64,000 nucleotides of DNA from contig CAZLBV010000215.1 in the NCBI GenBank assembly GCA_964557845.1, positions 3,582-67,581 of the forward strand, read 5' to 3'. A model generated the notes under the pieces. It did no database searches. It was not told where the DNA came from and was given only the letters and a program-made list of their open reading frames with translations. The position numbers and the translations under genes were made by a program. This DNA is from an uncultured Eubacteriales bacterium (GTDB lineage Bacteria > Acidobacteriota > Aminicenantia > Aminicenantales > Aminicenantaceae). Below, piece after piece: positions 2,024 through 58,819 of this stretch. How positions within the stretch are numbered: the stretch's first letter is position 1; each line of letters begins with the position of its first letter.

Positions 2024-3199
2024 GTGGTGCCGTTAGAAATAAGTAAAGATCTATATTGGGTCGGAGGGATAGACTGGGATCTCAGGGATTTTCACGGATA
2101 TCTGACCCAGCGTGGTTCAACGTATAATGCTTACCTGATACTAGATGAAAAGGTTATTCTGGTTGATACCGTAAAACATTATCTTTTCGATGAGATGATC
2201 AGCAGGATAAGTCAGATAATAGATCCGGCCAAGATCGATATAATTCTTTCCAATCATGTTGAGATGGATCATTCCGGTTCAATTCCGAAGGTGCTGGAAT
2301 TAGCCCCTAAAGCAGAAGTGATCACTTCAACCCAAGGCGAAAAGGGGCTGCGCAGACATTACAAGCAGGACTGGAAATTCCGTGTAATGAATTCCGGAGA
2401 ATCTTATAAGATAGGGAAAAGAACACTGCATTTTGTCCATACTCCTATGGTACATTGGCCGGATAATATGGTGACTTATTTAGAGGAAGATAAGATTCTT
2501 TTATCCAATGATGCCTTCGGACAGCATATTGCATCTTCTGAAAGATACGATGCTGAGGTTGGCTGGGATATTGTTAGAGAAGAAGCCGCCAAATATTATG
2601 CCAATATTGTGATGCCCTATGGAGACCAGACCAAAAAAGCTTTAGATGTAGTTTCAGGATTAGAGATCGAGAAGATTTGTCCCAGTCATGGAGTGATCTG
2701 GCGGTCATACATTCCTCGTATAGTGGAACAATACAAAAGATGGGCCGATTACGCGAGCGAAAACAAAGCGCTGATCGTATATGACTCCATGTGGGGATCT
2801 ACCGCTAAGATAGCAGAGAAACTCAAGGAGGGGCTGGAAGAAAGCGGCCTTGGGGTTACAATTAGAAACTTAAAGACAAATCACATATCCGATATCATGA
2901 CCGATCTAATAGATACCCGCTTGATATTGATCGGTTCTCCTACTCTGAACAATGGAATGCTTCCTACTATGGGAAGTTTTTTAACTTATTTAAAGGGTTT
3001 AAGGCCCAAAAAGAGGATCGGATTTGCTTTCGGTTCTTTTGGGTGGGGCGGTCAGGCTGTCGGTGAGATAGAGTCAGTTATGAAAGGGCTTGGTTGGGAG
3101 ATCCCGGAGCGATCGTTGAATATTAAATTTATTCCAGATGAAGCTGAACTGAATACAGTTAAGGAAGCTGCGGTAAAATTAAGAAAACACTTAGAATAA
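2024..3199 (+). CDS. fprA: flavodiiron protein (rubredoxin:oxygen/nitric-oxide oxidoreductase, FprA/ROO family)
   Basis: 391 aa with a GTG start 4 nt after the rubredoxin stop. The N-terminal metallo-beta-lactamase-like diiron domain carries HVEMDHSG (HxExDH) and the C-terminal part is a flavodoxin-like domain (GSPTLNNGMLP). Pairing with rubredoxin is typical for O2/NO detoxification in anaerobes. Confidence 0.85.
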   Translation: MVPLEISKDLYWVGGIDWDLRDFHGYLTQRGSTYNAYLILDEKVILVDTVKHYLFDEMISRISQIIDPAKIDIILSNHVEMDHSGSIPKVLELAPKAEVITSTQGEKGLRRHYKQDWKFRVMNSGESYKIGKRTLHFVHTPMVHWPDNMVTYLEEDKILLSNDAFGQHIASSERYDAEVGWDIVREEAAKYYANIVMPYGDQTKKALDVVSGLEIEKICPSHGVIWRSYIPRIVEQYKRWADYASENKALIVYDSMWGSTAKIAEKLKEGLEESGLGVTIRNLKTNHISDIMTDLIDTRLILIGSPTLNNGMLPTMGSFLTYLKGLRPKKRIGFAFGSFGWGGQAVGEIESVMKGLGWEIPERSLNIKFIPDEAELNTVKEAAVKLRKHLE

Positions 3200-13018: not shown

Positions 13019-13140
13019 AATTCTGGTGATGTCACCAGAACAAGAGGGATTCTTAATAATTTTTAACCATTCTATCTTTATAATATATTAATATATAGTA
13101 CAATAATAAAGAGCTAAAAATTAAAAAGAGGAAGGAAGGC

Positions 13141-13566
13141 ATGAAAAAATTTTGGCGCTGTCATGTGTGCAATGACATTCATTATGGAGTAAGGCCGCCT
13201 GAGATCTGCCCGACCTGTATGGTAAAAGATGCTTATGTTGAAATATCTTCCCAGGAAGCGAAAAAGATAATAGGCCCGGCTGAAACAACTTTAGACAAGG
13301 GGAAATTCAGGGCTGCTATAGAACAGCTTTCTGAAAAAAGAGAATTCCAAGTCAATCCCGACAATGAAAAGGTTACTCAACTGATTGAAGGAGTCTTTAG
13401 TAATGAGAAAAATCAAGAATTAAAATATTGTCCCTGCAGAATGATCGAAAAGGATTTTGAAAAGGATCTTCAGTTGATCTGCCCGTGCAATTTTCTTATC
13501 CATGAAACCTATAAAAATAAAGATGAGGGGGAATGCTGGTGTGGCTTATTTAAAAAAAGGAGTTAA
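13141..13566 (+). CDS. ferredoxin:disulfide reductase-like protein: rubredoxin-like domain fused to a ferredoxin-thioredoxin-reductase catalytic-subunit-like domain
   Basis: 141 aa. The N-terminus is a rubredoxin-like zinc ribbon (WRCHVCNDIHYG...EICPTC). The C-terminus carries FTR catalytic-chain cysteine pairs (YCPCR...ICPC...ECWCGLF), with Trp where FTR has His in the CHC motif. Confidence 0.65.
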   Translation: MKKFWRCHVCNDIHYGVRPPEICPTCMVKDAYVEISSQEAKKIIGPAETTLDKGKFRAAIEQLSEKREFQVNPDNEKVTQLIEGVFSNEKNQELKYCPCRMIEKDFEKDLQLICPCNFLIHETYKNKDEGECWCGLFKKRS

Positions 13567-13568
13567 AT

Positions 13569-13847
13569 ATGAGTACATTGATCATGTTTCATGGTAAGGA
13601 GTGTCCCCACTGCGCAAAAATGAGGCCGTTAGTCGATAAATTGGACAAAGAGGAAGGCATAAAGATAGAAAAATTAGAAGTATGGCACGACGAAAAAAAT
13701 GCGGATAAGATGCGTTCCTATCGAGATGTTATAACCGCAAAATGCGGGGGTCAGCTTAGGGTCCCGACTTTTTTAAATACGGAAACCAATGATGTTTTCT
13801 GTGGTGAAGTCGAATATGACGAGCTGAAAGCCTGGGCCAAAAAATAA
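13569..13847 (+). CDS. small thioredoxin/glutaredoxin-fold protein with a CPHC active site
   Basis: 92 aa with HGKECPHCAKMRP near the N-terminus, typical of a Trx-fold redox site. Its start is 3 nt after the FDR-like stop, so the two are translationally coupled. Confidence 0.7.
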   Translation: MSTLIMFHGKECPHCAKMRPLVDKLDKEEGIKIEKLEVWHDEKNADKMRSYRDVITAKCGGQLRVPTFLNTETNDVFCGEVEYDELKAWAKK

Positions 13848-13896: not shown

Positions 13897-14967
13897 ATGC
13901 CTGTTTCACATGAGACTAAAAATATGTTTCGGATCATGGATGATGAAGGCAGGGTAATCGAAAAAAAGGATCCCGAACTATCAAAATCCCAGCTTGAAAA
14001 TATTTACCTCTATATGATTACAACCAGGCTGGTTGATGTTAAGTCTCTGAAACTTCAACGTCAAGGGCGGCTTGGTACCTTTGCTCAAAGCCTGGGGCAT
14101 GAGGCCTGTCAGGTGGGATCAGCCTTGGCCCTTACGAAGGAAGATTGGTTTTTTCCCTATTTCCGTGACCTGGGCGCTTACGTTACTTTAGGGCTGCCGC
14201 TTGACTTATATTTTGTTTACTGGATGGGTAATGAGAGGGGTATGTCGATACCACCAGAATTAAATATATTTCCTCTTGCTGTGCCGGTGGCTTCTCAAAT
14301 CCCCCATGCTGTGGGTGCTGCCATGGCAGCTAAAATAAAAGGTGATAAGCGTGTATTTTTAACCACGTTTGGAGATGGCGCCACCTCAGAGGGAGATTTT
14401 CATGAAGCTTTGAATTTTGCCGGTGTTTATAAAACTCCTAATGTGTTTGTATGCTTTAACAATCAGTACGCCATTTCCCTTCCCAGAGACAAACAGACCG
14501 CTTCGAAAACCCTGGCAGAAAAAGCTGAGGCATACGGTTTTTCAGGCCGATTAGTCGATGGAAACGATGTGTTGGCTGTGTATGTTTCCACCAAACAAGC
14601 ATTGGACAAGGCTAGAAAAGGCGGAGGACCTTCGATGATCGAAGCCTTTACATACAGGATGAGCGACCATACAACTTCTGATGATGCCACCAAATACCGC
14701 TCAGAAAAGGAAACCAAAATATGGGAAAAAAGAGACCCGGTTTTAAGATTTAAAAAGTATCTTCAAAACAAAAAAATATGGAACAACCAATTTGAGGAAA
14801 GGATAACCAGAAAAGCAAATGAAAACATAGAAAAAGCAGTAAAACAGGCAGAAGCGATGCCTCAGCCCAAAATAGAAGATCTGTTTGAATATACCTATAA
14901 AGCAATGCCTTCCCACCTGAAAGAGCAGTTGAATGAGCTTAAGATATTCCTAAAGGAGAAAAAGTGA
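13897..14967 (+). CDS. 2-oxoacid (pyruvate/branched-chain) dehydrogenase E1 component, alpha subunit (TPP-binding)
   Basis: 356 aa with the TPP-binding region GDGATSEGDFHEALNFAG and phosphorylation-loop-like YRMSDHTTSDD. Confidence 0.85.
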   Translation: MPVSHETKNMFRIMDDEGRVIEKKDPELSKSQLENIYLYMITTRLVDVKSLKLQRQGRLGTFAQSLGHEACQVGSALALTKEDWFFPYFRDLGAYVTLGLPLDLYFVYWMGNERGMSIPPELNIFPLAVPVASQIPHAVGAAMAAKIKGDKRVFLTTFGDGATSEGDFHEALNFAGVYKTPNVFVCFNNQYAISLPRDKQTASKTLAEKAEAYGFSGRLVDGNDVLAVYVSTKQALDKARKGGGPSMIEAFTYRMSDHTTSDDATKYRSEKETKIWEKRDPVLRFKKYLQNKKIWNNQFEERITRKANENIEKAVKQAEAMPQPKIEDLFEYTYKAMPSHLKEQLNELKIFLKEKK

Positions 14968-15941
14968 TGAAGTTGAATATGGTACAGGCTTTAAATCTGA
15001 CCCTTGTAGAGGAGATGGAGAAGAATTCCGATGTTGTGATATTAGGCGAAGATGTGGGGATTGATGGAGGGGTTTTCCGGGTTACAGATGGCTTGATAGA
15101 AAAATTTGGTCCTGAAAGAGTCATAGATACTCCTTTGGCTGAATCGGCCATGATCGGGGCTGCTATTGGAATGGCGGCATATGGCCTGCGGCCGATTGCC
15201 GAGATTCAATTTATGGGATTTGTATATGAAGCTTATCATCAAATAGTGGATCATGCTGCCCGGTTGAGAAACCGTACCAGAGGAAGATATTTTGTGCCCA
15301 TGGTGATCAGGATGCCCTATGGAGCCGGAGTTAAAGCCCTCGAACATCATTCGGAAAGTACGGAAGCGATTTTCTGTCACATTCCCGGCCTGAAGGTGGT
15401 AGTGCCTGCAACACCCCATGATGCACGAGGCCTTTTAATCTCAGCTGTCCGGGATGATGATCCGGTCATATTCCTTGAACCCAAAAGGCTTTACCGAGCC
15501 GGAAAACAGGAAATTCCTGATGAGCCAGAAGAGATTCCATTGGGTAAAGCCAAAATCCAAAGGGAAGGTGAGGATATTACTATAATTGTATGGGGCGCCA
15601 TGGTGCCGGTTGCGGAAGCTGCTGCTGAACAGGTAGAAAAAAAGGGTATTTTTCCCGAGGTCATAGATCTTCGGACACTAAGCCCCATGGATTCAGCCGC
15701 CGTAGTGGATTCAGTGAAAAAGACCGGCAGAGCTCTAATCGTCCATGAAGCCCCGCGAACCTGTGGTCTGGGTGCAGAGATCGCCGCACTTATCGGCGAA
15801 AAGGCGCTCCTTCATTTGAAGGCCCCGGTACTGAGGGTTACTGGTCAGGATATCACAGTTCCTCTGGCTAAAAGTGAACACTATTATTATCCCTCTCCTG
15901 AGAGGGTGATTTTTGCTATAAACAAGATCATGGAGTGGTAA
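14967..15941 (+). CDS. 2-oxoacid dehydrogenase E1 component, beta subunit
   Basis: About 324 aa (VILGEDVGIDGGVFRVT..., transketolase-like pyrimidine and C-terminal domains). ATG at 14967 overlaps the E1-alpha stop (GTGATGA) and has AGGAGA 7 nt upstream. Confidence 0.85.
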   Translation: MKLNMVQALNLTLVEEMEKNSDVVILGEDVGIDGGVFRVTDGLIEKFGPERVIDTPLAESAMIGAAIGMAAYGLRPIAEIQFMGFVYEAYHQIVDHAARLRNRTRGRYFVPMVIRMPYGAGVKALEHHSESTEAIFCHIPGLKVVVPATPHDARGLLISAVRDDDPVIFLEPKRLYRAGKQEIPDEPEEIPLGKAKIQREGEDITIIVWGAMVPVAEAAAEQVEKKGIFPEVIDLRTLSPMDSAAVVDSVKKTGRALIVHEAPRTCGLGAEIAALIGEKALLHLKAPVLRVTGQDITVPLAKSEHYYYPSPERVIFAINKIMEW

Positions 15942-15942
15942 C

Positions 15943-17181
15943 ATGGCAAAGCAATTTAAATTTCCGGATGTTGGGGAAGGTATAACCGAGGGAGAAATTG
16001 TAAAATGGCGGGTAAAAGAAGGTGATGAGGTCGAGGAAGATCAGACTTTGGCCGATATAGAAACAGACAAAGCGGTAGTTGAAGTTCCATCTCCCTATTC
16101 TGGTACAGTACTCAAGCTTCATTTTAAAGAGGATGATATTGTGAAAGTGGGAGAACCTCTGGTAACCATAGGTGAGAAAGGGGAAGATCCGGAAAAGGTT
16201 ACAACAGAAGAGATTCCTGAGGAGGAAGAGACCACAGCGCCTTCGGTTGTTGGCGATATAAAGGAAAGCAAAAGAGAGATCATCGATATCCTGGCTACTC
16301 CAAAAGTGAGAAAACTGGCCCTGGATTTAAAAGTCGATATCAAGGATGTACACGGCACAGGAAAATACGAGAGGATAACCGAAGAAGACGTTAAAAAGGC
16401 GGCCGCTGGTGAAAAAAAGAAATCACCAGATAAACCTGCGGTTAAAATTAAGTCAAATTATGATTTTTACGGGACTCTGAAAAGGATCCCCCTGCGAGGG
16501 GTGAGGAGGGCAACTGCCAAAAAAATGGCGGAATCTGTCTCTCATGCCGCCCATGTAACTCACTGTGATGAAGCAAATGCAGAAAAGTTGGTGCATATCA
16601 GGGAAACGATGAAATCGGAAGCAGAGAAAGAGAATATTAAATTAACCTACCTTCCTTTTATAGTTAAAGCTTTAATAGCTGCTCTTAAAAAACACCCTGT
16701 TTTAAATGCGACACTGGAAGAAGATACCGAAGAGATCGTGATCAAGCAATACTACAATATTGGTATAGCAGTGGATGTTCCTGAGGGACTCATTGTTCCG
16801 GTAATTAAATATGCGGAACAAAAAGACCTATTCGCTTTGGCAGAGGAGATTCAACAACTGGCTGAGAATGCCAAGGCCAGAACATTGGATCTGGCAGATT
16901 TAAAGGGAGGGACCTTTTCCATAACCAATGTCGGTTTACTGGGAGGGGAATTCGCTACGCCGATTATAAACTATCCTGAGGTCGCGATCCTGGCTACTAT
17001 GAAAATAGCGGACAGAGTCCGGATGGTTGATGGTGAGATAAAGATCGTAAAAACACTGCCCCTCTGTCTATCCTTTGACCATAGGGTGATAGACGGAGCT
17101 GAAGCAGCCCGGTTCATGAATGATCTTATTCAGCTTTTGGAGGATCCGAATCAGATCTTGAAGGGAGAAGAACGTTCTTAA
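15943..17181 (+). CDS. 2-oxoacid dehydrogenase E2 component, dihydrolipoamide acyltransferase
   Basis: 412 aa. It has an N-terminal lipoyl domain (IETDKAVVEVPSPYSG), an E3-binding segment, and a C-terminal catalytic domain with DHRVIDGA. Confidence 0.9.
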   Translation: MAKQFKFPDVGEGITEGEIVKWRVKEGDEVEEDQTLADIETDKAVVEVPSPYSGTVLKLHFKEDDIVKVGEPLVTIGEKGEDPEKVTTEEIPEEEETTAPSVVGDIKESKREIIDILATPKVRKLALDLKVDIKDVHGTGKYERITEEDVKKAAAGEKKKSPDKPAVKIKSNYDFYGTLKRIPLRGVRRATAKKMAESVSHAAHVTHCDEANAEKLVHIRETMKSEAEKENIKLTYLPFIVKALIAALKKHPVLNATLEEDTEEIVIKQYYNIGIAVDVPEGLIVPVIKYAEQKDLFALAEEIQQLAENAKARTLDLADLKGGTFSITNVGLLGGEFATPIINYPEVAILATMKIADRVRMVDGEIKIVKTLPLCLSFDHRVIDGAEAARFMNDLIQLLEDPNQILKGEERS

Positions 17182-28059: not shown

Positions 28060-28629
28060 TTATTCAATGACTGTAAATTCCCACGCACAATAGACATCCG
28101 GAGGATGAGGATCAGGAGGGCAGGTTATACATCTGGTCTGTATTCTGGGATCGATGGTGCGGGCAAAACCGCTGTACTCAACGACCCCTACAGGCTTGCA
28201 GGGAAAATCCGGTAATCCCTTTCTTTTCCTAGCATCCTGGACCCTGCACTTGTTCATCCGGAAAACACAACTGTTTTTCTGGATGTCGATGACCTCCTGG
28301 ACGTTGATATGGGCATAGAGCCTGAATTTTAAAGCTTGAATTAAAGCAGGTATACCACCCCCTGGCTGGATATTAAGACGATTCATGATCCTTTTGGCTT
28401 CAATGACGGTAAAATCCTCCCAGGCTGTTTTGTCCAACTCCATCGCTGTTTCCATCCCGAATTTTTTTTCTGCAGCCTGAAACCATAATCCGTCATGGGC
28501 CAACCAGTTTTTAGCGGCGTCTTTAAGAAGTTCCCTTAATTCCTCCTTGGACATATCTTGGATTTCTTTCATTATTTCTCCTATGACCTGATTTTTATTG
28601 TTTACAGAAGTTCTTTCAGACCGGTTCAT
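28060..28629 (-). CDS. hypothetical cysteine-rich protein, co-transcribed with a radical SAM gene
   Basis: 189-aa ORF whose start overlaps the radical SAM gene end by 14 nt. The C-terminus is Cys/Pro-rich (CRVQDARKRKGLPDFPCKPVG...RCITCPPDPHPPDVYCAWEF). I recognise no family. Confidence 0.35.
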   Translation of the reverse strand: MNRSERTSVNNKNQVIGEIMKEIQDMSKEELRELLKDAAKNWLAHDGLWFQAAEKKFGMETAMELDKTAWEDFTVIEAKRIMNRLNIQPGGGIPALIQALKFRLYAHINVQEVIDIQKNSCVFRMNKCRVQDARKRKGLPDFPCKPVGVVEYSGFARTIDPRIQTRCITCPPDPHPPDVYCAWEFTVIE

Positions 28630-29563
28630 AATATTTTAGATTTTTATATATAACGATTTTTATTTTATTTTCTTGCAGGAGAGAATTCAATTCTTTTAGG
28701 ACCGCGTTTCTATGTTTCCCAAGGGATGAGGAAATATCTTCAAGAGTGACAGGCCTCCTTTTTACCATATCAAGAATTTGGCTGGCTATATTTTCCTGAT
28801 AAGGAGGCTGGTCTCCACCCTGGAATTCTGCGATGATTTCTGCTTTATCACCGAGAAATTTTTGAATTTCTTCTAACCGTGACCTGCTTATCGGTTGAGC
28901 TGTAATTTCAGCAGGTGGGCGAACTACCGTATTGAGATGGATTTTGTCCGGGCGGATTTTTTCTATGACTTTTTTTAATTTTAACAGATGAGTATGTGAG
29001 TCATTGACATTTTTGACAAAAAGGATCTCGAGCCATATTTTACCATTGTATTGCTTTCTGAATTCAATCAAACCTGATAAGATCTCTTTAAGTTCAAGTT
29101 TAGGGTGAGGGCGGTTAATCTGTAAAAATACATCCTGAGAGGCCGCATCCAATGAAGGAACGACCAGGTCTGCCTTCTTTAAGTCCTGCCTGACTTCTTC
29201 TTGAGAAAGGAGAGTACTGTTAGTTAAAACAGCAACCGGAATATCAGTAAATGCTTTGATATTAGTTATCAATTCTCCAATTATTTTATTGAGAGTGGGT
29301 TCTCCTGAACCTGAAAAAGTAATGTAGTCGATATGGTGCCCAGTTTCGATGGCTTTCTTTATGCCAGCTAGAATTTCTTTTATAGAAAAGTATTTTTTTC
29401 TTTCTACAGTCTTTTTAGGGGTCGTCCCCAACTGGCAGTAGATGCAATCCAAACTGCAGGTTTTATATGGCAAGATATCTATTCCTAAAGAATAACCTAA
29501 CCTGCGTGAAGGTACTGGTCCATAAATGAATGTCTTTAGGTTTTTATTTTTAATTTTAGTCAC
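28616..29563 (-). CDS. radical SAM enzyme (CxxxCxxC) of a subfamily with an N-terminal YGPVPSRRLG motif and a C-terminal winged-helix-like tail; function unknown
   Basis: 315 aa with the radical SAM cluster motif CSLDCIYC after GPVPSRRLGYSLGIDI. A paralog with the same architecture lies at 59993-60943. Confidence 0.8.
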   Translation of the reverse strand: MTKIKNKNLKTFIYGPVPSRRLGYSLGIDILPYKTCSLDCIYCQLGTTPKKTVERKKYFSIKEILAGIKKAIETGHHIDYITFSGSGEPTLNKIIGELITNIKAFTDIPVAVLTNSTLLSQEEVRQDLKKADLVVPSLDAASQDVFLQINRPHPKLELKEILSGLIEFRKQYNGKIWLEILFVKNVNDSHTHLLKLKKVIEKIRPDKIHLNTVVRPPAEITAQPISRSRLEEIQKFLGDKAEIIAEFQGGDQPPYQENIASQILDMVKRRPVTLEDISSSLGKHRNAVLKELNSLLQENKIKIVIYKNLKYYEPV

Positions 29564-31313: not shown

Positions 31314-32186
31314 TTAATTATCCACATTTTTTAGATTAAGCCAAATTTCTTTTATCTCATTGGCAAGGTCAGAATTAGGAAGTTCTGGAATAGGGATGCC
31401 TTGAGTGACAGCTTTAATCGCATCTTCTGAATAGGAGATTTTTCCTAAAATTTTGATGTTGTTTTTTTGACACCAAGTAATGATTCCGTGTGTGTTTTGC
31501 TTATTTATGTCGTATTTATTGATAATACAGGCAGTTTTGATTTTAAAATATTTGGATGTCTCGATAACTCTTTCCATATCATGGACCGCAGAAAGAGTGG
31601 GCTCAGTGACCACAACCGCTAAATCAACTCCGGAAAGAGAAGCGATGACTGGGCAGCCTATTCCGGGAGGCCCGTCGATAAGGACCCAATCCAAATTGCC
31701 CGACTCTGCGATCTCTCTGGCTTTTTCTCTAACCAGTGAAACAAGTTTTCCGGAATTTTCTTCCCCGGGATACAGCCGGGCATGAACAAAGGGGCCGTAT
31801 TTTGTTTGAGAAATATACCATTCTCCGCAAACCGCAGGTTTCATTTCGATCGCCTGTACAGGACAAGATAAGGCACAAACTCTGCATCCTTCGCATGAAA
31901 AAGGATCTATAGAAATTTTTCCTTCATCGGAAGAGTGAATGGCATCGAACCGGCATAAACTCACACAAGCACCGCAGTATGTGCATTTTTCTTCATTGTA
32001 AACGGCTTTTTCTCCGCTTGTAAATGTGTGTGTTTCTTTGATCTCAGGATGGATCATTAAATGCAGATTGGCTGCATCAACATCACAGTCAGCGAGTACT
32101 TTCTTTTCTGCAAGGGAGGCAAAGGCAGCGGTCACAATTGTTTTCCCAGTTCCGCCTTTTCCGCTGATAACAACTATTTGCTTCAC
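31314..32186 (-). CDS. MinD/ParA-superfamily P-loop ATPase with inserted 2x[4Fe-4S] ferredoxin domain (CooC-like, COG1149-type)
   Basis: 290 aa with a deviant Walker A (GKGGTGKT) and two CxxCxxCxxxCP motifs (CTYCGACVSLC, CEGCRVCALSCP) inserted in the ATPase fold. Confidence 0.75.
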   Translation of the reverse strand: MKQIVVISGKGGTGKTIVTAAFASLAEKKVLADCDVDAANLHLMIHPEIKETHTFTSGEKAVYNEEKCTYCGACVSLCRFDAIHSSDEGKISIDPFSCEGCRVCALSCPVQAIEMKPAVCGEWYISQTKYGPFVHARLYPGEENSGKLVSLVREKAREIAESGNLDWVLIDGPPGIGCPVIASLSGVDLAVVVTEPTLSAVHDMERVIETSKYFKIKTACIINKYDINKQNTHGIITWCQKNNIKILGKISYSEDAIKAVTQGIPIPELPNSDLANEIKEIWLNLKNVDN

Positions 32187-32217
32187 TTCTTTTCCTTATT
32201 TTAAATATTATCGAGAT

Positions 32218-33099
32218 TCATCTCTTGGTTAGATTGTCGGTCTGAATTTTAATCTTGTATTTTAAGCTGTCATAGAGTTCTGAGAATTTGGTCTTAAAAC
32301 TTGGATCTATATCAATCAAGGCTTCTCCTTTAGAGTAAGCTTCTGCTATTTTTCTGTCCAATGGAATTTCCATGATTAAGGGAATGTTTTCCTTCTGACA
32401 GTATTCATGAATGATCTCATCACCTGTTCTTGCCCGGTTTAAGATCACACTAAAGGGAATGCCCATTTGCCTGAGAGTATCAACTGAGAGCTTGAGATCA
32501 TTTAAACCAAAAGGAGTCGGTTCTGTGACAAGAAGGGTGTGATCGCTGCCCTTAACTGTTTCGACCATAGGACATGATGTGCCGGGTGGAACATCCAGGA
32601 TCACATCTTGTTCGTGGTCGATCATTTTTTTCATCTGCCGGATCAACGGAGGAGACATTGCCTGGCCCACATCCAATTTTCCTGATAGAAAAAATATGTT
32701 TCCGGCATGACCTGATTTGATCACTCCGATTCTTTTGCCAATTTCTTTTATTGCGTTTTCAGGACAGAAAAGTTTACATGCCCCGCAGCCATGGCAGAGT
32801 TCAGGAAAGGTAAGAACGCTTTCTTTGAGTACGGCCAAGGCATTATAAGCACAGACTTCAGCACAGCGCCTGCAGTAGGTGCATTTATTATCATCAATTT
32901 CAGGAATAGGCAGGTAAGAGATTTTTTCTTTCTCAAATTCTGCTTTTATGAAAAAATGGGCATTTGGTCCTTCTACATCACAATCTAAAAATTGCAGCTT
33001 CTGATCTGCTGAAATGGAAAGAGCTATATTTACAGCAACCGTTGTTTTACCCGTTCCTCCTTTACCGCTGGCAATGGAAAGGATCATTAAATACTCCAA
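32218..33099 (-). CDS. MinD/ParA-superfamily P-loop ATPase with inserted 2x[4Fe-4S] ferredoxin domain (paralog)
   Basis: 293 aa with GKGGTGKTT, CTYCRRCAEVC and CHGCGACKLFCP. It is the tandem paralog of the downstream gene. Confidence 0.75.
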   Translation of the reverse strand: MEYLMILSIASGKGGTGKTTVAVNIALSISADQKLQFLDCDVEGPNAHFFIKAEFEKEKISYLPIPEIDDNKCTYCRRCAEVCAYNALAVLKESVLTFPELCHGCGACKLFCPENAIKEIGKRIGVIKSGHAGNIFFLSGKLDVGQAMSPPLIRQMKKMIDHEQDVILDVPPGTSCPMVETVKGSDHTLLVTEPTPFGLNDLKLSVDTLRQMGIPFSVILNRARTGDEIIHEYCQKENIPLIMEIPLDRKIAEAYSKGEALIDIDPSFKTKFSELYDSLKYKIKIQTDNLTKR

Positions 33100-33800
33100 A
33101 CGCTTCCGGCGCCGAGTTCAAGAAAATCATCCTTATACTCTTCTTTAAAGAGAGTTCGGGCTTCTAGTCCCGAGCAATGGGTCGGCCCCACTTTTTCTAT
33201 TCCCTCTCTTTTAAATAAACGAATGATCTCTTTGATCTCTCGGTCTTCAAATCCACCTAAATGGAATCCCCCAAAGACCATATAAATATTTTTCTGGAAT
33301 TGTTTTTTAGTAAGATCGATTATGTTTGTGATCCGTGGGTGGGCGCATCCAGTTATAAGAATCAAACCTTTATTGGTTTCTAAAATCAGGGATTGCTCTT
33401 TTATCCATCCGTTTATGACGCCGGTTGTAAAGGCTCCAGGTGATAGGTTTTGAGGGCCAGTGATGTAAACCGGGCAGCTTCTGGCATCAGTAACGGCTTT
33501 TTTTATTTTATTTGGAAAAAAATCAGGAATAAATACAGTTACATCGGAGTTTACTGCCAAGAATCCCTCTAAACCCCCTGTGTGATCGAAGTGTTCATGA
33601 GAGAGAAATATTTGATCTACCATTCCAGGCGATTTTCCCAACTTGTTTATATTATCCAGCAAGATTTTATGTTTTGCCCCGGTGTCGAAGAGTATGGTTT
33701 TTTCCATTCCTTGGATCAGGCAGGAAAACCCCCAATCTGTAGCGAATTCTGTTTTATAAGCAATATTGTCATAGAGAATTGAGAAGGTTAATGGAGACAT
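33087..33800 (-). CDS. MBL-fold metallo-hydrolase
   Basis: 237 aa with the HxHxDH motif (LSHEHFDHTGG) and later His/Asp ligands (GCAHP, GGFHLGG). Confidence 0.7.
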   Translation of the reverse strand: MSPLTFSILYDNIAYKTEFATDWGFSCLIQGMEKTILFDTGAKHKILLDNINKLGKSPGMVDQIFLSHEHFDHTGGLEGFLAVNSDVTVFIPDFFPNKIKKAVTDARSCPVYITGPQNLSPGAFTTGVINGWIKEQSLILETNKGLILITGCAHPRITNIIDLTKKQFQKNIYMVFGGFHLGGFEDREIKEIIRLFKREGIEKVGPTHCSGLEARTLFKEEYKDDFLELGAGSVWSI

Positions 33801-33857
33801 CTCTTATTGGCCTTAAAATTCTGATTAGATTTAATATGATAATTATTTATTCAACTC

Positions 33858-35060
33858 TCATTCAACAACAGCTAGGGCCTGCTCCAGGTCTGCCTCAAGA
33901 TCTTCATATCCTTCACAACCCACTGAGATGCGGATCAGATCATCTGTTATCCCTGCTTCCAATTTATCTTTCCTCGAGACATTTGCATGAGTCATACTAG
34001 CCGGATGTTGGATAAGGGTTTCAATTCCTCCCAGGGAAACCGCAAGGGTACATAATTTAACTGAGTCGATGAATTTTCTACCGGCATCTAACCCGCCTTT
34101 CAAGCCAAAACTGATAAGAGCACCGAAACCACGCATTTGTTTTTTTGCCAGTTTGTGTTGGGGATGGCTTTCCAAACCAGGATAGTTTACCCAGGCTATT
34201 TTTGGATGATTCTCAAGATAAGTGGCCAGTTTCATGGCATTATCCTGGGATTTCTCTACCCTGAGTGCTAAGGATTTTACTCCCCGTAAGACCAACCATG
34301 CTTGATGCGGGTCCATGTTACCACCCAGAAGGGAGAGAGCTGACCTGAGTTTATTATAAAGTTCTTCGTTTTTGGGAATAATTATTCCGCCTACTATATC
34401 TGAATGGCCGTTGATAAATTTAGTAACACTGTGGTAAACAATATCGGCGCCCAATTCCAGGGGATTTTGAAGATGTGGGCTGGCAAAAGTATTGTCAACC
34501 ACCAGCAGAAGGCCTTTAGAATGGGCTAGCTTTGCACAAGCCTCGATATCTGAAATAATCATGGTTGGATTAGCTGGAGTCTCGATAACAATAAGTTTAG
34601 TATTTGTTTTAATAGCGGATTCAATTTTTTTTGTATCCGAGGTATCCACATAATCGAAACTGATGCCGAATTTGTACGCTAATTTTTCAACCAGGACTCG
34701 AGAAGCCCCATAAACAGAAGCTGTGCTTATCATGTGTGAATTTTGTTCTAATAGACCAAAAAGCAGTGTAGATAGAGCGGACATCCCTGATGAGGTAGCC
34801 ATGGCCCCGTAGCCCTGTTCTAAATAGGCTATATTGTCCTCCAAGGCTCTTATTGTGGGATTACCCATTCTGGTATAGATATATCCTTCTTCTTCTCCGG
34901 CAAACCGGGCTGCGCCCTGCCGGGCATTTTTAAATGCAAAGGTAGACGATTGATAAATGGGTGTCGATACACCCCCAAATACTGGGTCTGGATGTTGAGC
35001 GGCATGGATAACACTGGTATGCCTGCTTTTCATTTTAATATCAGTCACATTTTCCTCCAT
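33858..35060 (-). CDS. Cys/Met-metabolism PLP enzyme (methionine gamma-lyase / cystathionine gamma-synthase / O-acetylhomoserine sulfhydrylase family)
   Basis: 400 aa with PLP-lysine in SVTKFINGHSD and trans-sulfuration-family motifs. The real start is possibly the internal Met at ~35033 (MKSRHTSVIH). Confidence 0.8.
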   Translation of the reverse strand: MEENVTDIKMKSRHTSVIHAAQHPDPVFGGVSTPIYQSSTFAFKNARQGAARFAGEEEGYIYTRMGNPTIRALEDNIAYLEQGYGAMATSSGMSALSTLLFGLLEQNSHMISTASVYGASRVLVEKLAYKFGISFDYVDTSDTKKIESAIKTNTKLIVIETPANPTMIISDIEACAKLAHSKGLLLVVDNTFASPHLQNPLELGADIVYHSVTKFINGHSDIVGGIIIPKNEELYNKLRSALSLLGGNMDPHQAWLVLRGVKSLALRVEKSQDNAMKLATYLENHPKIAWVNYPGLESHPQHKLAKKQMRGFGALISFGLKGGLDAGRKFIDSVKLCTLAVSLGGIETLIQHPASMTHANVSRKDKLEAGITDDLIRISVGCEGYEDLEADLEQALAVVE

Positions 35061-35211
35061 AAAATTTAACTAAGCGATATTAATAAATATAATAATTTCT
35101 GGCTTAAGAGATATTATAATACCGTTTTTAATCTCTGCGGCAGGATCTTTTGTCGAAACATATTTAGAAAATTCCACCACAGTTTTGGCATTCGTATCTG
35201 CAGATAGGAAG

Positions 35212-35397
35212 CTACCTTCCCCGGATCATCTTGGAACCGCATTTAGGGCAGGTTAATTCAAAACAGGGTTTTCCAGGTTGATGAGAAATTTTGTGTCCGC
35301 ATTTAGGGCACACACATGAACCGCCTGGCCCAAGCCCCTGTCCTCCGCCTAATCCTCTACCTCCTTGCCCATTAGGATCTCCGTTCGAATTGGACAT
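35212..35397 (-). CDS. small Gly-rich zinc-ribbon protein
   Basis: 61 aa with a Gly-rich N-terminus (GQGGRGLGGGQGLGPGG) and two CPKCG knuckles (CVCPKCGH...CPKCGS). Its position inside the conserved island supports it being real. Confidence 0.45.
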   Translation of the reverse strand: MSNSNGDPNGQGGRGLGGGQGLGPGGSCVCPKCGHKISHQPGKPCFELTCPKCGSKMIRGR

Positions 35398-35412
35398 GAT
35401 TTTCTCCTCTTT

Positions 35413-35853
35413 TCAGTTATAGGCTTCCATTATCTTTTTGTCTTCATTCATGAGATAATCCAGTTCTTTTCTGAATTTATCATCCCAAAAATTAAGCTTG
35501 TTATGAATTTCAAGATATTTCAGGGGAATAGGATGGGTTCCAATAACAACAGGGACTCCGTACTGAGTTTCAATGTATTCTTTGAATTGAAATAGATAGG
35601 GACAAGGTGGGTACCCGACCACCAAACCAGTGGCCAGATGAATGACTTCTGCGCCATTTTTTATCATTTCTTCTGGAACATATTCAATATTCCCCCCCGG
35701 GCATCCCCCGCAATAGGAATATCCTACGACCTCTATTTCTTCATCTTTTGGATAACGAGCAAAACCTCCGGTCCGTTCCCGGACGGAACGGAAGCATTTC
35801 CCGCCACCGCATAACTGATAGCGTCCACATATTATGATGCCGATTTTTTTCAT
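35413..35853 (-). CDS. CGGC-domain protein
   Basis: 146 aa with MKKIGIIICGRY...CGGGKC and YCGGCPGG. I recall these as the CGGC-domain family signature. Confidence 0.55.
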   Translation of the reverse strand: MKKIGIIICGRYQLCGGGKCFRSVRERTGGFARYPKDEEIEVVGYSYCGGCPGGNIEYVPEEMIKNGAEVIHLATGLVVGYPPCPYLFQFKEYIETQYGVPVVIGTHPIPLKYLEIHNKLNFWDDKFRKELDYLMNEDKKIMEAYN

Positions 35854-35874
35854 TTTATTTCCTATTATTATTAA

Positions 35875-37400: not shown

Positions 37401-37460
37401 TCAAACCTCTTTATCATGATTCAGGGTATACTTTTTATCTTAGAAATTCAACATCAATAT

Positions 37461-37805: not shown

Positions 37806-37810
37806 CTCCT

Positions 37811-55370: not shown

Positions 55371-55382
55371 GGAGGTTTAAAT

Positions 55383-56132: not shown

Positions 56133-56133
56133 A

Positions 56134-57457: not shown

Positions 57458-58819
57458 ATGACTGAATTGGATATTTTGATTATAGGGGCAGGCAGTGCCG
57501 GAGAACGTGCTGCCAGTTATTCTGCTGGTGATGATAGGAACGTTGGATTAATTGAAAAGGCCAGAGTGGGGGGAGCCTGTGTATTTAATGCCTGTATCCC
57601 AACCAAAGCCCTGGTCCATGCGGCCCGTACTTATAAACAAATGCGCAAGGCCGATTTTTATGGTCTACCCAAATTAAAGGAGAATGCCGAGTACCAGAAG
57701 GTCAAAGAATTTAAGGATAGGATCATTTTAGGAATTTCTGAAGGCAGGGATGAACGCATGTCTAAAAAAGGAGTAAAGGTTATTAAAGGTACTGCCCGTT
57801 TCATTTCTCCTCATGAAGTGATGGTTGATGAAAAAAAATTAAGGGCGCAAAAGATCATAATCGCTACCGGCTCGGAACCTGTGGCTCCTCCAATTAAGGG
57901 TCTTGAGGATGCTGGATATCTTAATAATATCAGTATTATAGAGTTAAACCATGCTCCAAAAAGATTAGCTGTTATCGGAGGAGGTCCGGTGGGGATTGAA
58001 TTTACCCAAATATTTTCAGCTTTTGGTTCCCAGGTCCATATCTATGAGATGGAAGACCGTATTTTGACGACGGAGGATGAGGATATATCGAACAAGCTTT
58101 CAGAGCTTCTCTTAAAAGGTGGAATTTTCATTTCCGCTGGAGTGAAAGTAAGCGAAGTCCGACAGACTCGAACAGGAAAATTGGTGATAAGTGAAGATAA
58201 AAAAGGATTAACCAACTCTGAAGAGTTCGACGATATCCTGGTTGCTGCCGGCAGAAAACCGGTTATGGATGAGCTGGATCTTTCGGCTGCCGGCGTCACT
58301 ACCTATAAAAAAGGGATCAAAGTGGATCCCTCAATGCGCACAAATGTTCCACACATCTGGGCCGTGGGTGATGTTACAGGAGGTTTTTATTTCACCTATA
58401 TTGCCTCGGAACAGGCCAAGATTGCCGCCTTGAATGCAGCCAATAATGAAGAACGAGCTATACATTATGATGTCCTTCCCAGAGCTACATTTTGCGATCC
58501 TGAAATAGCAAGTGTCGGTTTGACAGAGGCTCAGGCTAGAGAAAAAGGCTATCATGTTCAAACCTCCAAATTCAATTATGCCGATATGACCCGGGCTATA
58601 GTCTCCGACACGACTGATGGTTTTATAAAGATCGTGGCTGAAGAAGGATCAGGCCGCATCTTGGGTGGACATATTTTGGGAGCAGAAGCATCGACCCTGA
58701 TTCATGAAATTGCCGCAGCCATAACAGGAAATTTATCGGTTAATGATATAGGAGATCTGCTCCACTCTTATCCCACCTTTTCCGAAGGCATTCGTTATGC
58801 CTGCCAGTTGATTTCGTAA
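57458..58819 (+). CDS. class I pyridine nucleotide-disulfide oxidoreductase (dihydrolipoamide dehydrogenase / mercuric-reductase-like)
   Basis: 453 aa. The FAD site is ILIIGAGSAGERAA. The redox-active disulfide is GGACVFNACIPTK (CxxxxC). An NAD(P) site follows (AVIGGGPVGIEF). The C-terminus carries the His-Glu pair (HSYPTFSEGI) in a dimerisation domain. Confidence 0.8.
   Translation: MTELDILIIGAGSAGERAASYSAGDDRNVGLIEKARVGGACVFNACIPTKALVHAARTYKQMRKADFYGLPKLKENAEYQKVKEFKDRIILGISEGRDERMSKKGVKVIKGTARFISPHEVMVDEKKLRAQKIIIATGSEPVAPPIKGLEDAGYLNNISIIELNHAPKRLAVIGGGPVGIEFTQIFSAFGSQVHIYEMEDRILTTEDEDISNKLSELLLKGGIFISAGVKVSEVRQTRTGKLVISEDKKGLTNSEEFDDILVAAGRKPVMDELDLSAAGVTTYKKGIKVDPSMRTNVPHIWAVGDVTGGFYFTYIASEQAKIAALNAANNEERAIHYDVLPRATFCDPEIASVGLTEAQAREKGYHVQTSKFNYADMTRAIVSDTTDGFIKIVAEEGSGRILGGHILGAEASTLIHEIAAAITGNLSVNDIGDLLHSYPTFSEGIRYACQLIS

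What the first reader, a model, noticed from the sequence alone, without database searches (positions are those of the whole stretch)
13141..13847. Ferredoxin:disulfide reductase-like rubredoxin-FTR fusion with a CWC (not CHC) motif, coupled to a CPHC thioredoxin
The 141-aa protein fuses a rubredoxin-like zinc ribbon to an FTR-catalytic-subunit-like domain (YCPCR...ICPC...ECWCGLF). In plant and cyanobacterial FTR, and as I recall in the methanogen FDR, the last pair is CHC, and the His is implicated in catalysis. Here it is Trp. A 92-aa CPHC thioredoxin-fold protein starts 3 nt after its stop and is the obvious substrate. Together they would form a ferredoxin-driven (NADPH-independent) thiol-reduction system. 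It sits between the oadGAB and 2-oxoacid dehydrogenase operons.
Basis: partly seen in the sequence, partly recalled or inferred. Interest (0 to 1): 0.55.

Follow-up and report, generated by a model that had tools for sequence, protein, structure and literature searches.

The report
FDR-like reductase and thioredoxin pair
Two tightly linked small genes encode an iron-sulfur disulfide reductase (a relative of plant ferredoxin:thioredoxin reductase with tryptophan in place of the catalytic histidine) and its own mini-thioredoxin; in two very distant anaerobe lineages the pair sits beside lipoic-acid-dependent 2-oxoacid dehydrogenase genes that have no E3 gene in the cluster, so it may service that enzyme's lipoyl arm.

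Summary
ORF 13141-13566 (141 aa) is a rubrerythrin-type rubredoxin-like Cys4 domain fused to an FTR-catalytic-subunit domain. All six FTR cysteines align, and Trp133 sits where FTR has His86. A 92-aa CPHC thioredoxin-fold gene follows after 2 nt.

M. acetivorans FDR (4TPU) and the Desulfotalea Grx-FDR fusion (7PWE) have C-Y-C. Family-wide this residue varies (W, Y, H, F, L).

CWC marks a large clade in Aminicenantes and Methanomassiliicoccales (236 of 238 close homologues). The thioredoxin-like gene is immediately downstream in 83 of 85 Aminicenantes-type loci and in all six Methanomassiliicoccales loci examined.

The neighbourhood was undervalued. The PDH-type E1alpha/E1beta/E2 operon follows the pair in about 29% of Aminicenantes loci. 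In four of the Methanomassiliicoccales loci, including cultured M. luminyensis, the pair heads FDR-Trx-LplB-LplA, convergent with E2-E1beta-E1alpha-LipA. No E3 gene occurs in any of the first 102 fetched loci.

Best reading: an FDR-type one-electron-carrier:disulfide relay, probably acting on lipoyl proteins. It might even replace E3. However, the window holds a borderline Lpd-like gene 40 kb away, and the direction of electron flow is unknown.

Verdict: new variant of a known kind.

The parts
13141..13566 (+). FDR-like gene (141 aa): N-terminal rubrerythrin-type rubredoxin-like Cys4 domain plus FTR-catalytic-subunit-like [4Fe-4S]/disulfide domain
   Evidence: ORF. Pfam PF21349 plus PF02943 above cutoffs. 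Best PDB sequence hits are 4tpu_A (FDR) and 7pwe_A. Foldseek top hits are 7pwe and 4tpu. 977 homologues share the same architecture.
13153..13236 (+). Rubredoxin-like Cys4 domain (aa 5-32; C7-x2-C10 ... C23-x2-C26). Presumed Fe(Cys)4 electron entry/exit site.
   Evidence: PF21349 at 32.4 bits. C7, C10, C23 and C26 are invariant in alignment A1. The model superposes on the rubrerythrin Rd domain (1b71/1ryt) at rmsd 0.9 A over 36-37 residues. Metal identity was not testable.
13306..13554 (+). FTR-catalytic-like domain (aa 56-138)
   Evidence: PF02943 at 55.4 bits, E 7e-15. Profile alignment to 1dj7_A, 7bzk_A, 4tpu_A and 7pwe_A.
13429..13437 (+). C97-P-C99, first cluster/disulfide motif (equivalent to FTR C55-P-C57)
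   Evidence: Sequence. Invariant or nearly invariant. Aligned.
13480..13488 (+). C114-P-C116, second motif (equivalent to FTR C74-P-C76). The linker from the first motif is 14 residues, as in FDR 4TPU (FTR has 16).
13534..13542 (+). C132-W133-C134, third motif (equivalent to FTR C85-H86-C87 and FDR C-Y-C). The linker from the second motif is 15 residues (FDR 12, FTR 8).
   Evidence: W is present in 120/120 and 116/118 homologues.
13569..13847 (+). Thioredoxin-fold partner gene (92 aa) with active site E-C12-P-H-C15, cis-Pro66, and two further invariant Cys (C59, C78)
   Evidence: ORF. Sub-threshold Trx/Grx family hits. AF2 pLDDT 91 with a Trx fold. Foldseek matches thioredoxins. Invariant residues across 121 sequences. 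Immediately downstream of the FDR-like gene in 83/85 loci and in the Methanomassiliicoccales loci.
13602..13613 (+). CPHC redox motif of the thioredoxin-like protein
   Evidence: Sequence. CPHC is present in 120/120 homologues.
13897..14967 (+). E1 alpha of a PDH-type 2-oxoacid dehydrogenase. Putative client system, probably co-transcribed (49-nt gap, no terminator-like site in the gap).
   Evidence: PF00676. TIGR03181 at 469 bits, above the 411 cutoff. Terminator scan. Follows the pair in 18/63 loci with room. 52% identical to the Methanomassiliicoccales cluster E1 alpha.
14964..15941 (+). E1 beta
   Evidence: NF006667 at 325 bits, above the 321 cutoff. 67% identical to the L095 E1 beta.
15943..17181 (+). 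E2 dihydrolipoyl acyltransferase (lipoyl domain, peripheral-subunit-binding domain, catalytic domain). The operon ends here with no E3.
   Evidence: PF00364, PF02817 and PF00198. The next ORFs are membrane proteins without Pfam hits. 51% identical to the L095 E2.
57458..58819 (+). Lpd-like class-I flavoprotein disulfide reductase. Candidate conventional E3 encoded 40 kb away; this counts against the E3-replacement reading.
   Evidence: PF07992 plus PF02852. TIGR01350 at 407 bits versus a 408.8 cutoff. CVFNAC redox motif and C-terminal H-x4-E.

Best explanation
The two genes encode a dedicated thiol/disulfide relay.

Gene 1 is an FDR-type enzyme. It has an FTR-catalytic-subunit fold whose six cysteines should hold an active-site [4Fe-4S] cluster next to a redox-active disulfide (C99-C134 by homology). 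It also has an N-terminal rubrerythrin-type Fe(Cys)4 domain that would pass single electrons between an external carrier (ferredoxin or similar) and the cluster.

Gene 2 is a minimal thioredoxin (CPHC) that exchanges its disulfide with gene 1 and carries the reducing equivalents to or from a client.

Trp133 replaces the acid/base His of plant FTR and the Tyr of archaeal FDR. It is invariant in this clade, so this clade works without a protic side chain at that position.

The most likely client is a lipoyl protein, namely the E2 of the co-located, E3-less PDH-type 2-oxoacid dehydrogenase.

Shown: domain composition, motif alignment, clade-wide conservation, and gene linkage.

Inferred: cofactors, electron donor, direction of flow, and client.
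For: Family assignment: Pfam; PDB sequence and profile alignments to 4TPU, 7PWE, 1DJ7 and 7BZK with all Cys pairs in register; Foldseek.

Partner: the Trx-like gene is 2 nt downstream here and adjacent in 83/85 Aminicenantes-type loci. It is also adjacent in the Methanomassiliicoccales homologues, which are only 43-49% identical. The Trx fold is confirmed. 7PWE is a natural Grx-FDR fusion.

Lipoyl link:
- E1alpha-E1beta-E2 directly follows the pair here, on 7 contigs carrying the identical protein, and in 18/63 loci. These loci are scattered over the FDR+Trx tree.
- In Methanomassiliicoccales, including cultured M. luminyensis and the complete genome CP058896.1, the pair heads FDR-Trx-LplB-LplA, convergent with E2-E1beta-E1alpha-LipA.
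- The module's proteins are orthologous between the two lineages (E1alpha 52%, E1beta 67%, E2 51%, Trx 54%, FDR 43%) although the gene order differs.
- No E3/Lpd-like gene occurs in the first 102 fetched loci (812 kb).
Against: - No biochemical data exist for any CWC-type member. Cofactor binding is inferred only, and the AF2 model is weak over the cluster-binding loops (pLDDT 54-60 for residues 91-120).
- About 70% of Aminicenantes loci have pan genes or other genes downstream rather than the dehydrogenase.
- Three other CWC lineages show no lipoyl genes nearby (L092 has an upstream CPYC glutaredoxin instead; L098 and L099 have no redoxin next to the gene).
- The Methanomassiliicoccales loci are mutually syntenic, so they count as roughly one observation.
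- The window has a borderline Lpd-like gene at 57458, and E2 keeps its E3/E1-binding domain.
- In L096/L097 the pair and LplB/LplA persist next to a 241-aa E2 catalytic-domain-only protein without E1. The link may therefore be to lipoate handling rather than to this E2.
Confidence: 0.55

Rival explanations
1. General-purpose ferredoxin-dependent thioredoxin system. The pair simply keeps cytoplasmic protein thiols reduced in a strict anaerobe. Its position next to the dehydrogenase and lipoylation genes would be inherited synteny without functional meaning.
For: Homology to FDR/FTR, whose known role is ferredoxin-to-redoxin electron transfer (review PMC7278568). No TrxB-like gene lies in the 64-kb window. 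About 70% of Aminicenantes loci lack the dehydrogenase downstream. Other CWC lineages pair with a glutaredoxin or with nothing.
Against: The association with E1/E2 or lipoylation genes recurs in a bacterial phylum and an archaeal order with different gene order and strand arrangement. The Trx-like protein is a clade-specific, non-canonical protein with four invariant Cys, rather than a housekeeping WCGPC thioredoxin. In L101 and L102 a canonical PF00085 thioredoxin is encoded separately nearby.
Confidence: 0.3
2. Electron supply to an anaerobic (class III) ribonucleotide reductase, as described for the Methanosarcina barkeri FDR-NrdH-NrdD system.
For: NrdD (PF13597) lies 5-8 kb from the pair in three Methanomassiliicoccales loci: L095, L096 and L101. 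The precedent is Wei et al. 2015, cited in PMC6262447; the paper itself is not held.
Against: NrdD is never adjacent and is separated from the pair by unrelated genes. It is absent within 10 kb in L100 and L102, absent from the Pfam-scanned ORFs of the 64-kb window, and absent from the Aminicenantes loci inspected.
Confidence: 0.07
3. Rubrerythrin-like fragment or peroxide-defence protein. The gene would be a remnant or relative of rubrerythrin rather than a disulfide reductase.
For: The N-terminal 28 residues match the rubrerythrin rubredoxin-like domain (PF21349; NF045767 at 26 bits). That domain superposes on 1b71/1ryt. The window encodes other O2/ROS-defence genes.
Against: There is no diiron four-helix domain. 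Residues 56-138 are an FTR-catalytic domain above the Pfam cutoff. The full-length architecture is conserved in about 1,000 homologues.
Confidence: 0.02

Closest known systems
Ferredoxin:disulfide reductase (FDR) of Methanosarcina acetivorans (PDB 4TPU)
   Same: It is the best sequence match among solved structures (profile E 1e-20). The FTR-like domain has the same CPC-x14-CPC spacing and is fused to a rubredoxin-like Cys4 domain. No variable subunit is evident. It lacks the FTR histidine. From my own knowledge (Kumar 2015; Prakash 2018; neither readable here), FDR reduces Trx/Grx-like proteins with ferredoxin.
   Different: The domain order is permuted (rubredoxin-like domain N-terminal here, C-terminal in FDR). 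The active-site residue is Trp rather than Tyr. There is a 3-residue longer loop before the last Cys pair. The partner gene is fixed and adjacent, and the pair is associated with lipoyl-enzyme genes.
Glutaredoxin/FDR fusion protein of Desulfotalea psychrophila (PDB 7PWE)
   Same: It is the top Foldseek hit. The FDR domain is covalently joined to a thioredoxin-fold redoxin, which is the fused counterpart of the two-gene arrangement here.
   Different: The redoxin is fused rather than a separate gene. It has C-Y-C rather than C-W-C. It has no rubredoxin-like domain aligned to residues 1-45 of the query.
[quoted passage not shown]
   Same: Same Pfam family (PF02943). All six cluster/disulfide cysteines and the flanking E-C-x-C-x-L-F align.
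   Different: Catalytic His86 is replaced by Trp. No variable-subunit gene is adjacent. The loops between the Cys motifs differ (14/15 versus 16/8 residues). There is an extra rubredoxin-like domain. Similarity is weak (E about 1e-5; Foldseek prob 0.4-0.6).
Desulfothioredoxin of Desulfovibrio vulgaris (PDB 2L6C) and other non-canonical small thioredoxins
   Same: Thioredoxin fold with a CPHC active site instead of WCGPC. It appears among both the sequence and the structure matches of the 92-aa protein.
   Different: Sequence similarity is only marginal (E 0.12). The 92-aa protein lacks the N-terminal strand/helix of classical thioredoxins and has two extra invariant cysteines (C59, C78) and an invariant W39-H40.
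Dihydrolipoyl dehydrogenase (E3) of 2-oxoacid dehydrogenase complexes
   Same: This is a functional analogy only. E3 is the component that exchanges electrons with the dihydrolipoyl arm of E2, and its gene normally closes E1-E2 operons. In the clusters studied here that slot is empty, and the FDR/Trx pair is the only disulfide oxidoreductase present.
   Different: There is no homology. E3 is an FAD/NAD+ flavoprotein, whereas this is an Fe-S enzyme plus a thioredoxin-fold carrier. Oxidising dihydrolipoamide (about -290 mV, textbook value) with a low-potential ferredoxin would be uphill. An Lpd-like gene also exists elsewhere in the window.

Membership tests
FTR catalytic subunit family (Pfam PF02943 FeThRed_B) | Sequence match above the curated threshold | tested here: met
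   55.4 bits versus a cutoff of 22, E 7e-15, aa 56-138
FTR catalytic subunit family (Pfam PF02943 FeThRed_B) | Six cysteines in three pairs (CPC ... CPC ... CxC) that ligate the [4Fe-4S] cluster and form the active disulfide | tested here: met
   C97/C99, C114/C116 and C132/C134 align with those of 1DJ7, 7BZK, 4TPU and 7PWE. They are invariant in homologues.
Plant-type FTR (heterodimeric ferredoxin:thioredoxin reductase) | Catalytic histidine between the last two cysteines (C-H-C) | tested here: not met
   Trp133 in the window, and W in 236/238 close homologues
Plant-type FTR (heterodimeric ferredoxin:thioredoxin reductase) | Partner variable subunit (FTRv) | tested here: not met
   The neighbours are oadB and the Trx-like gene. 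No FTRv-like gene appears in the window ORFs scanned or next to homologues. A gene elsewhere in the genome cannot be excluded.
FDR (archaeal/bacterial ferredoxin:disulfide reductase, 4TPU type) | FTR-like domain fused to a rubredoxin-like Cys4 domain in one polypeptide | tested here: met
   PF21349 plus PF02943. However, the order is N-terminal Rd here and C-terminal Rd in 4TPU and in most C-Y-C representatives.
FDR (archaeal/bacterial ferredoxin:disulfide reductase, 4TPU type) | Active-site tyrosine in place of the FTR histidine (C-Y-C) | tested here: not met
   C-W-C here; 4TPU and 7PWE have C-Y-C
FDR (archaeal/bacterial ferredoxin:disulfide reductase, 4TPU type) | [4Fe-4S] and Fe(Cys)4 cofactors; ferredoxin-dependent reduction of a Trx/Grx-like protein | not testable with these tools
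   Needs purified protein, spectroscopy and activity assays
Thioredoxin family (PF00085 / TIGR01068) | Sequence match above the curated threshold and the WCGPC motif | tested here: not met
   PF00085 at 19 bits versus 23.5; TIGR01068 at 16 versus 96.8; the motif is ECPHC
Thioredoxin-fold redoxins (superfamily level) | Beta-alpha-beta-alpha-beta-beta-alpha fold, with CxxC at the N-terminus of helix 1 and a cis-Pro loop before strand 3 | tested here: met
   AF2 pLDDT 91. Strands 4-8, 33-37, 67-70 and 75-78; helices 13-29, 42-59 and 83-91. C12/C15 lie at the helix start and P66 precedes strand 3. Foldseek prob 1.0 to thioredoxins.
Rubrerythrin-type rubredoxin-like domain (PF21349) | Match above threshold with four conserved Cys (CxxC ... 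CxxC) | tested here: met
   32.4 bits versus 26.5. C7, C10, C23 and C26 are invariant. Rmsd 0.9 A to 1b71/1ryt. Whether the metal is Fe or Zn was not testable.
2-oxoacid dehydrogenase complex operon (E1-E2-E3) | E3 (dihydrolipoyl dehydrogenase) gene in the operon | tested here: not met
   The operon ends at E2 in the window and in related loci. There is no Lpd-like tblastn hit in the first 102 loci (812 kb). A borderline Lpd-like gene lies 40 kb away.

The most novel reading that the evidence does not exclude
The FDR(CWC)/CPHC-thioredoxin pair is a non-orthologous replacement of E3. It would re-oxidise the dihydrolipoyl arm of E2 and deliver the electrons, one at a time through the [4Fe-4S] cluster and the rubredoxin-like Fe(Cys)4 domain, to ferredoxin, rubredoxin or another one-electron acceptor instead of NAD+. 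That would make a pyridine-nucleotide-independent 2-oxoacid dehydrogenase complex in strict anaerobes (Aminicenantes, Methanomassiliicoccales). The non-protic Trp and the rubrerythrin-type (typically high-potential) Cys4 domain would fit an enzyme that runs in the dithiol-oxidising direction.
Probability: 0.2. Interest if true: 0.85.

Novelty: new variant of a known kind. Interest (0 to 1): 0.55.

Why it matters
FTR and FDR enzymes are the only disulfide reductases that use an Fe-S cluster for catalysis. Their mechanism has been argued around the active-site His (FTR) or Tyr (FDR). A large natural clade with an invariant Trp shows that a protic side chain there is dispensable, and it offers a ready-made test of that mechanism.

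The comparative context also gives this clade a concrete candidate client. The orthologous module (FDR, mini-thioredoxin, E1alpha/beta, E2, and in archaea also LplA/B and LipA) occurs without E3 in a bacterial phylum and in an order of methanogens. That order includes a cultured species, Methanomassiliicoccus luminyensis.

If the pair services the lipoyl arm, it would explain two things. One is how 2-oxoacid dehydrogenase complexes operate in anaerobes whose central electron carrier is ferredoxin rather than NAD+. The other is why methanogen relatives keep such complexes, an old open question about archaeal 2-oxoacid dehydrogenases.

Even in the conservative reading, the pair defines a distinct, abundant and uncharacterised ferredoxin-type thioredoxin system in Aminicenantes, a widespread sediment phylum.

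Tried and rejected
1. Rubrerythrin-fragment idea: rejected. Only the 28-aa Cys4 domain matches, and the rest is an FTR domain.
2. 'FDR has CHC': rejected by direct alignment to 4TPU and 7PWE.
3. oadGAB linkage: seen only in the closest relatives (L006 at 91% identity, and contigs with the identical protein). It is not conserved elsewhere, so it is treated as incidental.
4. My greedy ORF caller mis-called genes in high-GC loci. I replaced it with tblastn mapping.
5. The single-sequence genome-contig scan gave only 5 loci. The metagenome scan returned only close (62-91%) relatives. Distant lineages had to be reached through the representative search plus look-up of encoding contigs.
6. Search for E3 near the module: none in the first 102 loci.
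7. NrdD link: NrdD is present 5-8 kb away in some archaeal loci, but is not adjacent, not universal, and not in the window.
8. Geometry of the Trp relative to the cluster: not attempted. The AF2 model is weak there (pLDDT 54-60) and coordinates are not exposed.
9. Promoter and terminator scans gave nothing above shuffled expectation. A terminator-like hairpin at 13747-13765 lies inside the Trx-like coding sequence and encodes its invariant GGQL..VPTF motif, so I ignored it.
10. Literature: the key FDR papers (PMC6005431, PMC4697749) are not held. No held paper links FTR-like enzymes to lipoyl enzymes or describes this cluster.
Full report
1. THE OBSERVATION

The first is 13141..13566 (+, 141 aa) and the second 13569..13847 (+, 92 aa). 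The TAA stop ends at 13566 and the next ATG is at 13569.

Pfam places a rubrerythrin-type rubredoxin-like domain (PF21349, 32.4 bits, cutoff 26.5) at residues 5-32. It places the ferredoxin-thioredoxin reductase catalytic-chain domain (PF02943, 55.4 bits, cutoff 22, E 7e-15) at residues 56-138.

The motifs are C97-P-C99, C114-P-C116 and C132-W133-C134. Upstream lie a BirA-like gene, a 70-aa oadG-like ORF, oadA and oadB. Downstream lie PDH-type E1alpha (TIGR03181, 469 bits), E1beta and E2.

2. IS TRP REALLY AT THE HIS POSITION, AND WHAT DO KNOWN RELATIVES HAVE?

A profile of 16 homologues (A1), searched against PDB sequences, aligns the three Cys pairs with Synechocystis FTRc (1DJ7) and Arabidopsis FTRc (7BZK). 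The match is ...CPCR...CPC...ECHCMLF against ...CPCr...CPCnF...eCwCgLF (re-aligned). Trp133 therefore replaces His86 of FTR.

The closest solved relatives are not FTR. They are the M. acetivorans ferredoxin:disulfide reductase (4TPU, E 1e-20) and the Desulfotalea psychrophila glutaredoxin/FDR fusion (7PWE, E 1e-16).

From my own knowledge (Prakash et al. 2018, JBC), the FDR tyrosine is proposed to take the role of the FTR histidine. That paper is not in the held library, so I could not check this.

Loop lengths:
- Window: CPC-x14-CPC-x15-CWC
- FDR: x14 / x12
- FTR: x16 / x8

3. HOW SPECIAL IS CWC?

An exhaustive HMMER search of 1.84 billion representatives gave 430 hits. Among the top 150, 73 carry the complete motif. 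In those, the middle residue of the last pair is W 24, Y 15, H 14, F 11, L 5, A 2, I 1, Q 1.

Loss of His is therefore common. Trp defines a clade with the signature CPCNF...[E/R]CWCGLF and, where the sequence is full length, an N-terminal Cys4 domain. The C-Y-C proteins mostly carry the Cys4 domain at the C-terminus.

Within the clade Trp is essentially invariant. It is present in 120/120 homologues of the window protein (66-91% identity; those carrying an organism name are Candidatus Aminicenantes). It is present in 116/118 homologues of a distant member. Many of the latter are named Methanomassiliicoccales, including Methanomassiliicoccus luminyensis.

4. THE PARTNER

The 92-aa protein reaches only sub-threshold Trx/Grx family scores. 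Its AF2 model is confident (pLDDT 91) and has a minimal thioredoxin fold. The CPHC motif sits at the start of helix 1 and Pro66 precedes strand 3. Foldseek matches thioredoxins, including Trx m from the FTR complex and the CPHC desulfothioredoxin.

Across 121 sequences the following are invariant: E-C-P-H-C, W39-H40, C59-G-G-Q-L, P66, C78-G-E and W89. There are thus four invariant cysteines.

Gene linkage is very strong. The gene lies immediately downstream of the FDR-like gene in 83 of 85 related loci; one locus has no room and one lacks it. A member of the same small family (53.9% identical over 89 aligned residues in L095) follows the FDR-like gene in the Methanomassiliicoccales loci.

In another CWC lineage a CPYC glutaredoxin sits immediately upstream instead. 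7PWE is a covalent Grx-FDR fusion. That the redoxin is the reductase's direct partner is therefore well supported, although not demonstrated.

5. THE NEIGHBOURHOOD

oadGAB is upstream only in the closest relatives.

The dehydrogenase operon is a different matter. E1alpha-E1beta-E2 follows the pair within 1.5 kb in 18 of 63 Aminicenantes-type loci that have room. These loci are scattered across the FDR+Trx tree rather than forming one sub-clade. In every case inspected the operon stops at E2.

In Methanomassiliicoccales the arrangement FDR-Trx-LplB-LplA is convergent with E2-E1beta-E1alpha-LipA. It is found in:
- L095, from an NCBI MAG;
- L100, which carries the protein that NCBI names for cultured M. 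luminyensis;
- L101, the complete genome CP058896.1;
- L102.

LipA was identified by its CX4CX5C and CX3CX2C motifs. LplB was identified by PF10437 in L101.

The module proteins are clearly orthologous between window and archaeon: E1alpha 52%, E1beta 67%, E2 51%, Trx-like 54%, FDR-like 43%. No E3 is present within 10 kb in these loci. A tblastn search with the window's Lpd-like protein finds nothing in the 102 loci fetched up to that point (812 kb).

I found no paper that connects FTR-like enzymes with lipoyl enzymes or that discusses this cluster. The Methanomassiliicoccales comparative-genomics paper does not mention it.

6. CAVEATS TO THE LIPOYL LINK

- The Methanomassiliicoccales loci are syntenic relatives. 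Independent support is essentially two lineages plus the rearranged gene order.
- Most Aminicenantes loci have panD/panC/panB or other genes downstream.
- Lineages L092, L098 and L099 show no lipoyl genes.
- The window encodes a class-I flavoprotein disulfide reductase at 57458-58819. It scores 407 bits against the Lpd equivalog (cutoff 408.8) and has the CxxxxC and C-terminal H-x4-E features. It sits after hemerythrin and SufC/SufBD-like genes rather than with a dehydrogenase.
- E2 retains a peripheral-subunit-binding domain. In complexes with heterotetrameric E1 that domain also binds E1 (established knowledge), so this is not decisive.
- In L096/L097 the pair and LplB/LplA persist beside a 241-aa E2 catalytic-domain-only protein without E1. 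This points to lipoate handling in general rather than to that particular E2.
- Thermodynamics (textbook potentials: lipoamide about -290 mV, typical ferredoxins about -400 mV or lower): ferredoxin-driven lipoyl reduction would be downhill, and dihydrolipoyl-driven ferredoxin reduction uphill. A dithiol-oxidising role would need a higher-potential acceptor, for which the rubrerythrin-type Cys4 domain is a conceivable conduit. This is inference only.

7. OPERON STRUCTURE

The upstream spacer is 122 nt and AT-rich. It contains a weak promoter-like site (13077-13104) and a perfect 9+9 palindrome right after the oadB stop (13021-13040).

The spacing is 2 nt between the pair and 49 nt to E1alpha, with no terminator-like site in that gap. 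Co-transcription of FDR-Trx-E1alpha-E1beta-E2 is likely but unproven. The scans do not exceed shuffled expectation.

8. OTHER CANDIDATE CLIENTS

NrdD lies 5-8 kb from the pair in three archaeal loci. This recalls the M. barkeri FDR-NrdH-NrdD system, cited in PMC6262447.

However, NrdD is not adjacent and is missing within 10 kb in L100 and L102. It was not found among the window ORFs scanned. Those scans also found no TrxB-like gene and no stand-alone ferredoxin in the window. The window is only a fraction of a genome, so this says little.

9. VERDICT

The anatomy is confirmed. The family is FDR/FTR-like, and the pair is almost certainly a reductase-redoxin couple (about 0.8-0.85).

The protein fails two narrow membership criteria. 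It lacks the His of plant FTR and the Tyr and C-terminal Rd of the characterised FDR. I therefore file it as a new variant of a known kind, not as an FTR or a 4TPU-type FDR proper.

Its most likely role is a one-electron-carrier:disulfide relay acting on lipoyl proteins of the co-located E3-less dehydrogenase and lipoylation module. Overall confidence in that statement is 0.55.

The boldest reading still allowed is replacement of E3, giving a pyridine-nucleotide-independent 2-oxoacid dehydrogenase. I rate this at about 0.2. It is directly testable because a cultured carrier exists and all components are small soluble proteins.

Noticed in passing
window 13021-13040: Perfect 9+9 palindrome TTCTGGTGA-tg-TCACCAGAA, 3 nt after the oadB stop codon and about 100 nt upstream of the FDR-like start. 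No T-run follows it. It could be an operator or an RNA hairpin.
   Followed up: partly
window 13569-13847 (residues C59 and C78): Besides CPHC, the mini-thioredoxin has two further cysteines (in CGGQL and CGE) and a W39-H40 pair. All are invariant in 121 homologues and in the archaeal versions. This suggests a second disulfide, a metal or cluster site, or a client-binding feature.
   Followed up: partly
window 57458-58819 (with 54807-57366): An Lpd-like flavoprotein (TIGR01350 at 407 bits versus cutoff 408.8; CVFNAC and C-terminal HxxxxE) lies directly after hemerythrin, SufC-like and SufB/D-like genes. That is an unusual position for a dihydrolipoyl dehydrogenase. Its true substrate is open.
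   Followed up: partly
L095 10001-10576 (P0395/P0121, 191 aa): A Methanomassiliicoccales sub-clade of the FDR-like protein carries two tandem rubredoxin-like Cys4 domains before the FTR(CWC) domain.
   Followed up: no
L096 11857-12582 and L097 4893-5618: In one Methanomassiliicoccales lineage the FDR-Trx-LplB-LplA genes are retained, but the convergent partner is only a 241-aa E2 catalytic-domain protein with no lipoyl domain and no E1 genes. This is either a degenerate cluster or a different client.
   Followed up: no
L095 18449-20566, L096 15582-17687, L101 18283-20406: An anaerobic ribonucleotide reductase gene (NrdD, PF13597) recurs 5-8 kb from the FDR-Trx pair in Methanomassiliicoccales. 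It is separated from the pair by an AIRS-family gene and a 193-196-aa ORF.
   Followed up: partly
L002 5004-5243, L003 4929-5168, L005 1591-1830; L100 19898-20426: A 79-aa Cys-rich protein (CICGGCPSYNQC...) and a 238-aa membrane protein recur just upstream of the pair in many Aminicenantes loci. I guessed the 79-aa protein to be DUF2769-like but did not scan it. Pfam-annotated DUF2769 genes also lie about 10 kb from the pair in the M. luminyensis-type locus.
   Followed up: no
window 31314-38257 (- strand): A dense block of anaerobe Fe-S and metal-handling genes of unclear function: Fur-family regulator, DUF5320, a double Nitro_FeMo-Co (DUF269-like) protein, a NUBPL/ParA ATPase, a CGGC-domain protein, a Cys/Met PLP enzyme, a metallo-beta-lactamase, and two MinD/ParA-type ATPases with inserted 2x[4Fe-4S] motifs.
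   Followed up: no
window 2024-3199, 53676-54548, 54807-55370: An oxygen/ROS-defence set typical of strict anaerobes: a flavodiiron protein (ODP plus flavodoxin), a rubrerythrin-VIT1 fusion, and a hemerythrin-domain protein.
   Followed up: no
L085 6001-6420: This is the only related locus with ample downstream sequence (6 kb) that lacks the thioredoxin-like gene after the FDR-like gene. An 822-aa minus-strand ORF follows instead.
   Followed up: no
window 28616-29563 and 59993-60943 (- strand): Two paralogous 315-aa radical-SAM proteins share an N-terminus (GPVPSRRLG...C-x-Y-C). One of them lies next to a DUF6125 protein. Neither is LipA-like.
   Followed up: no
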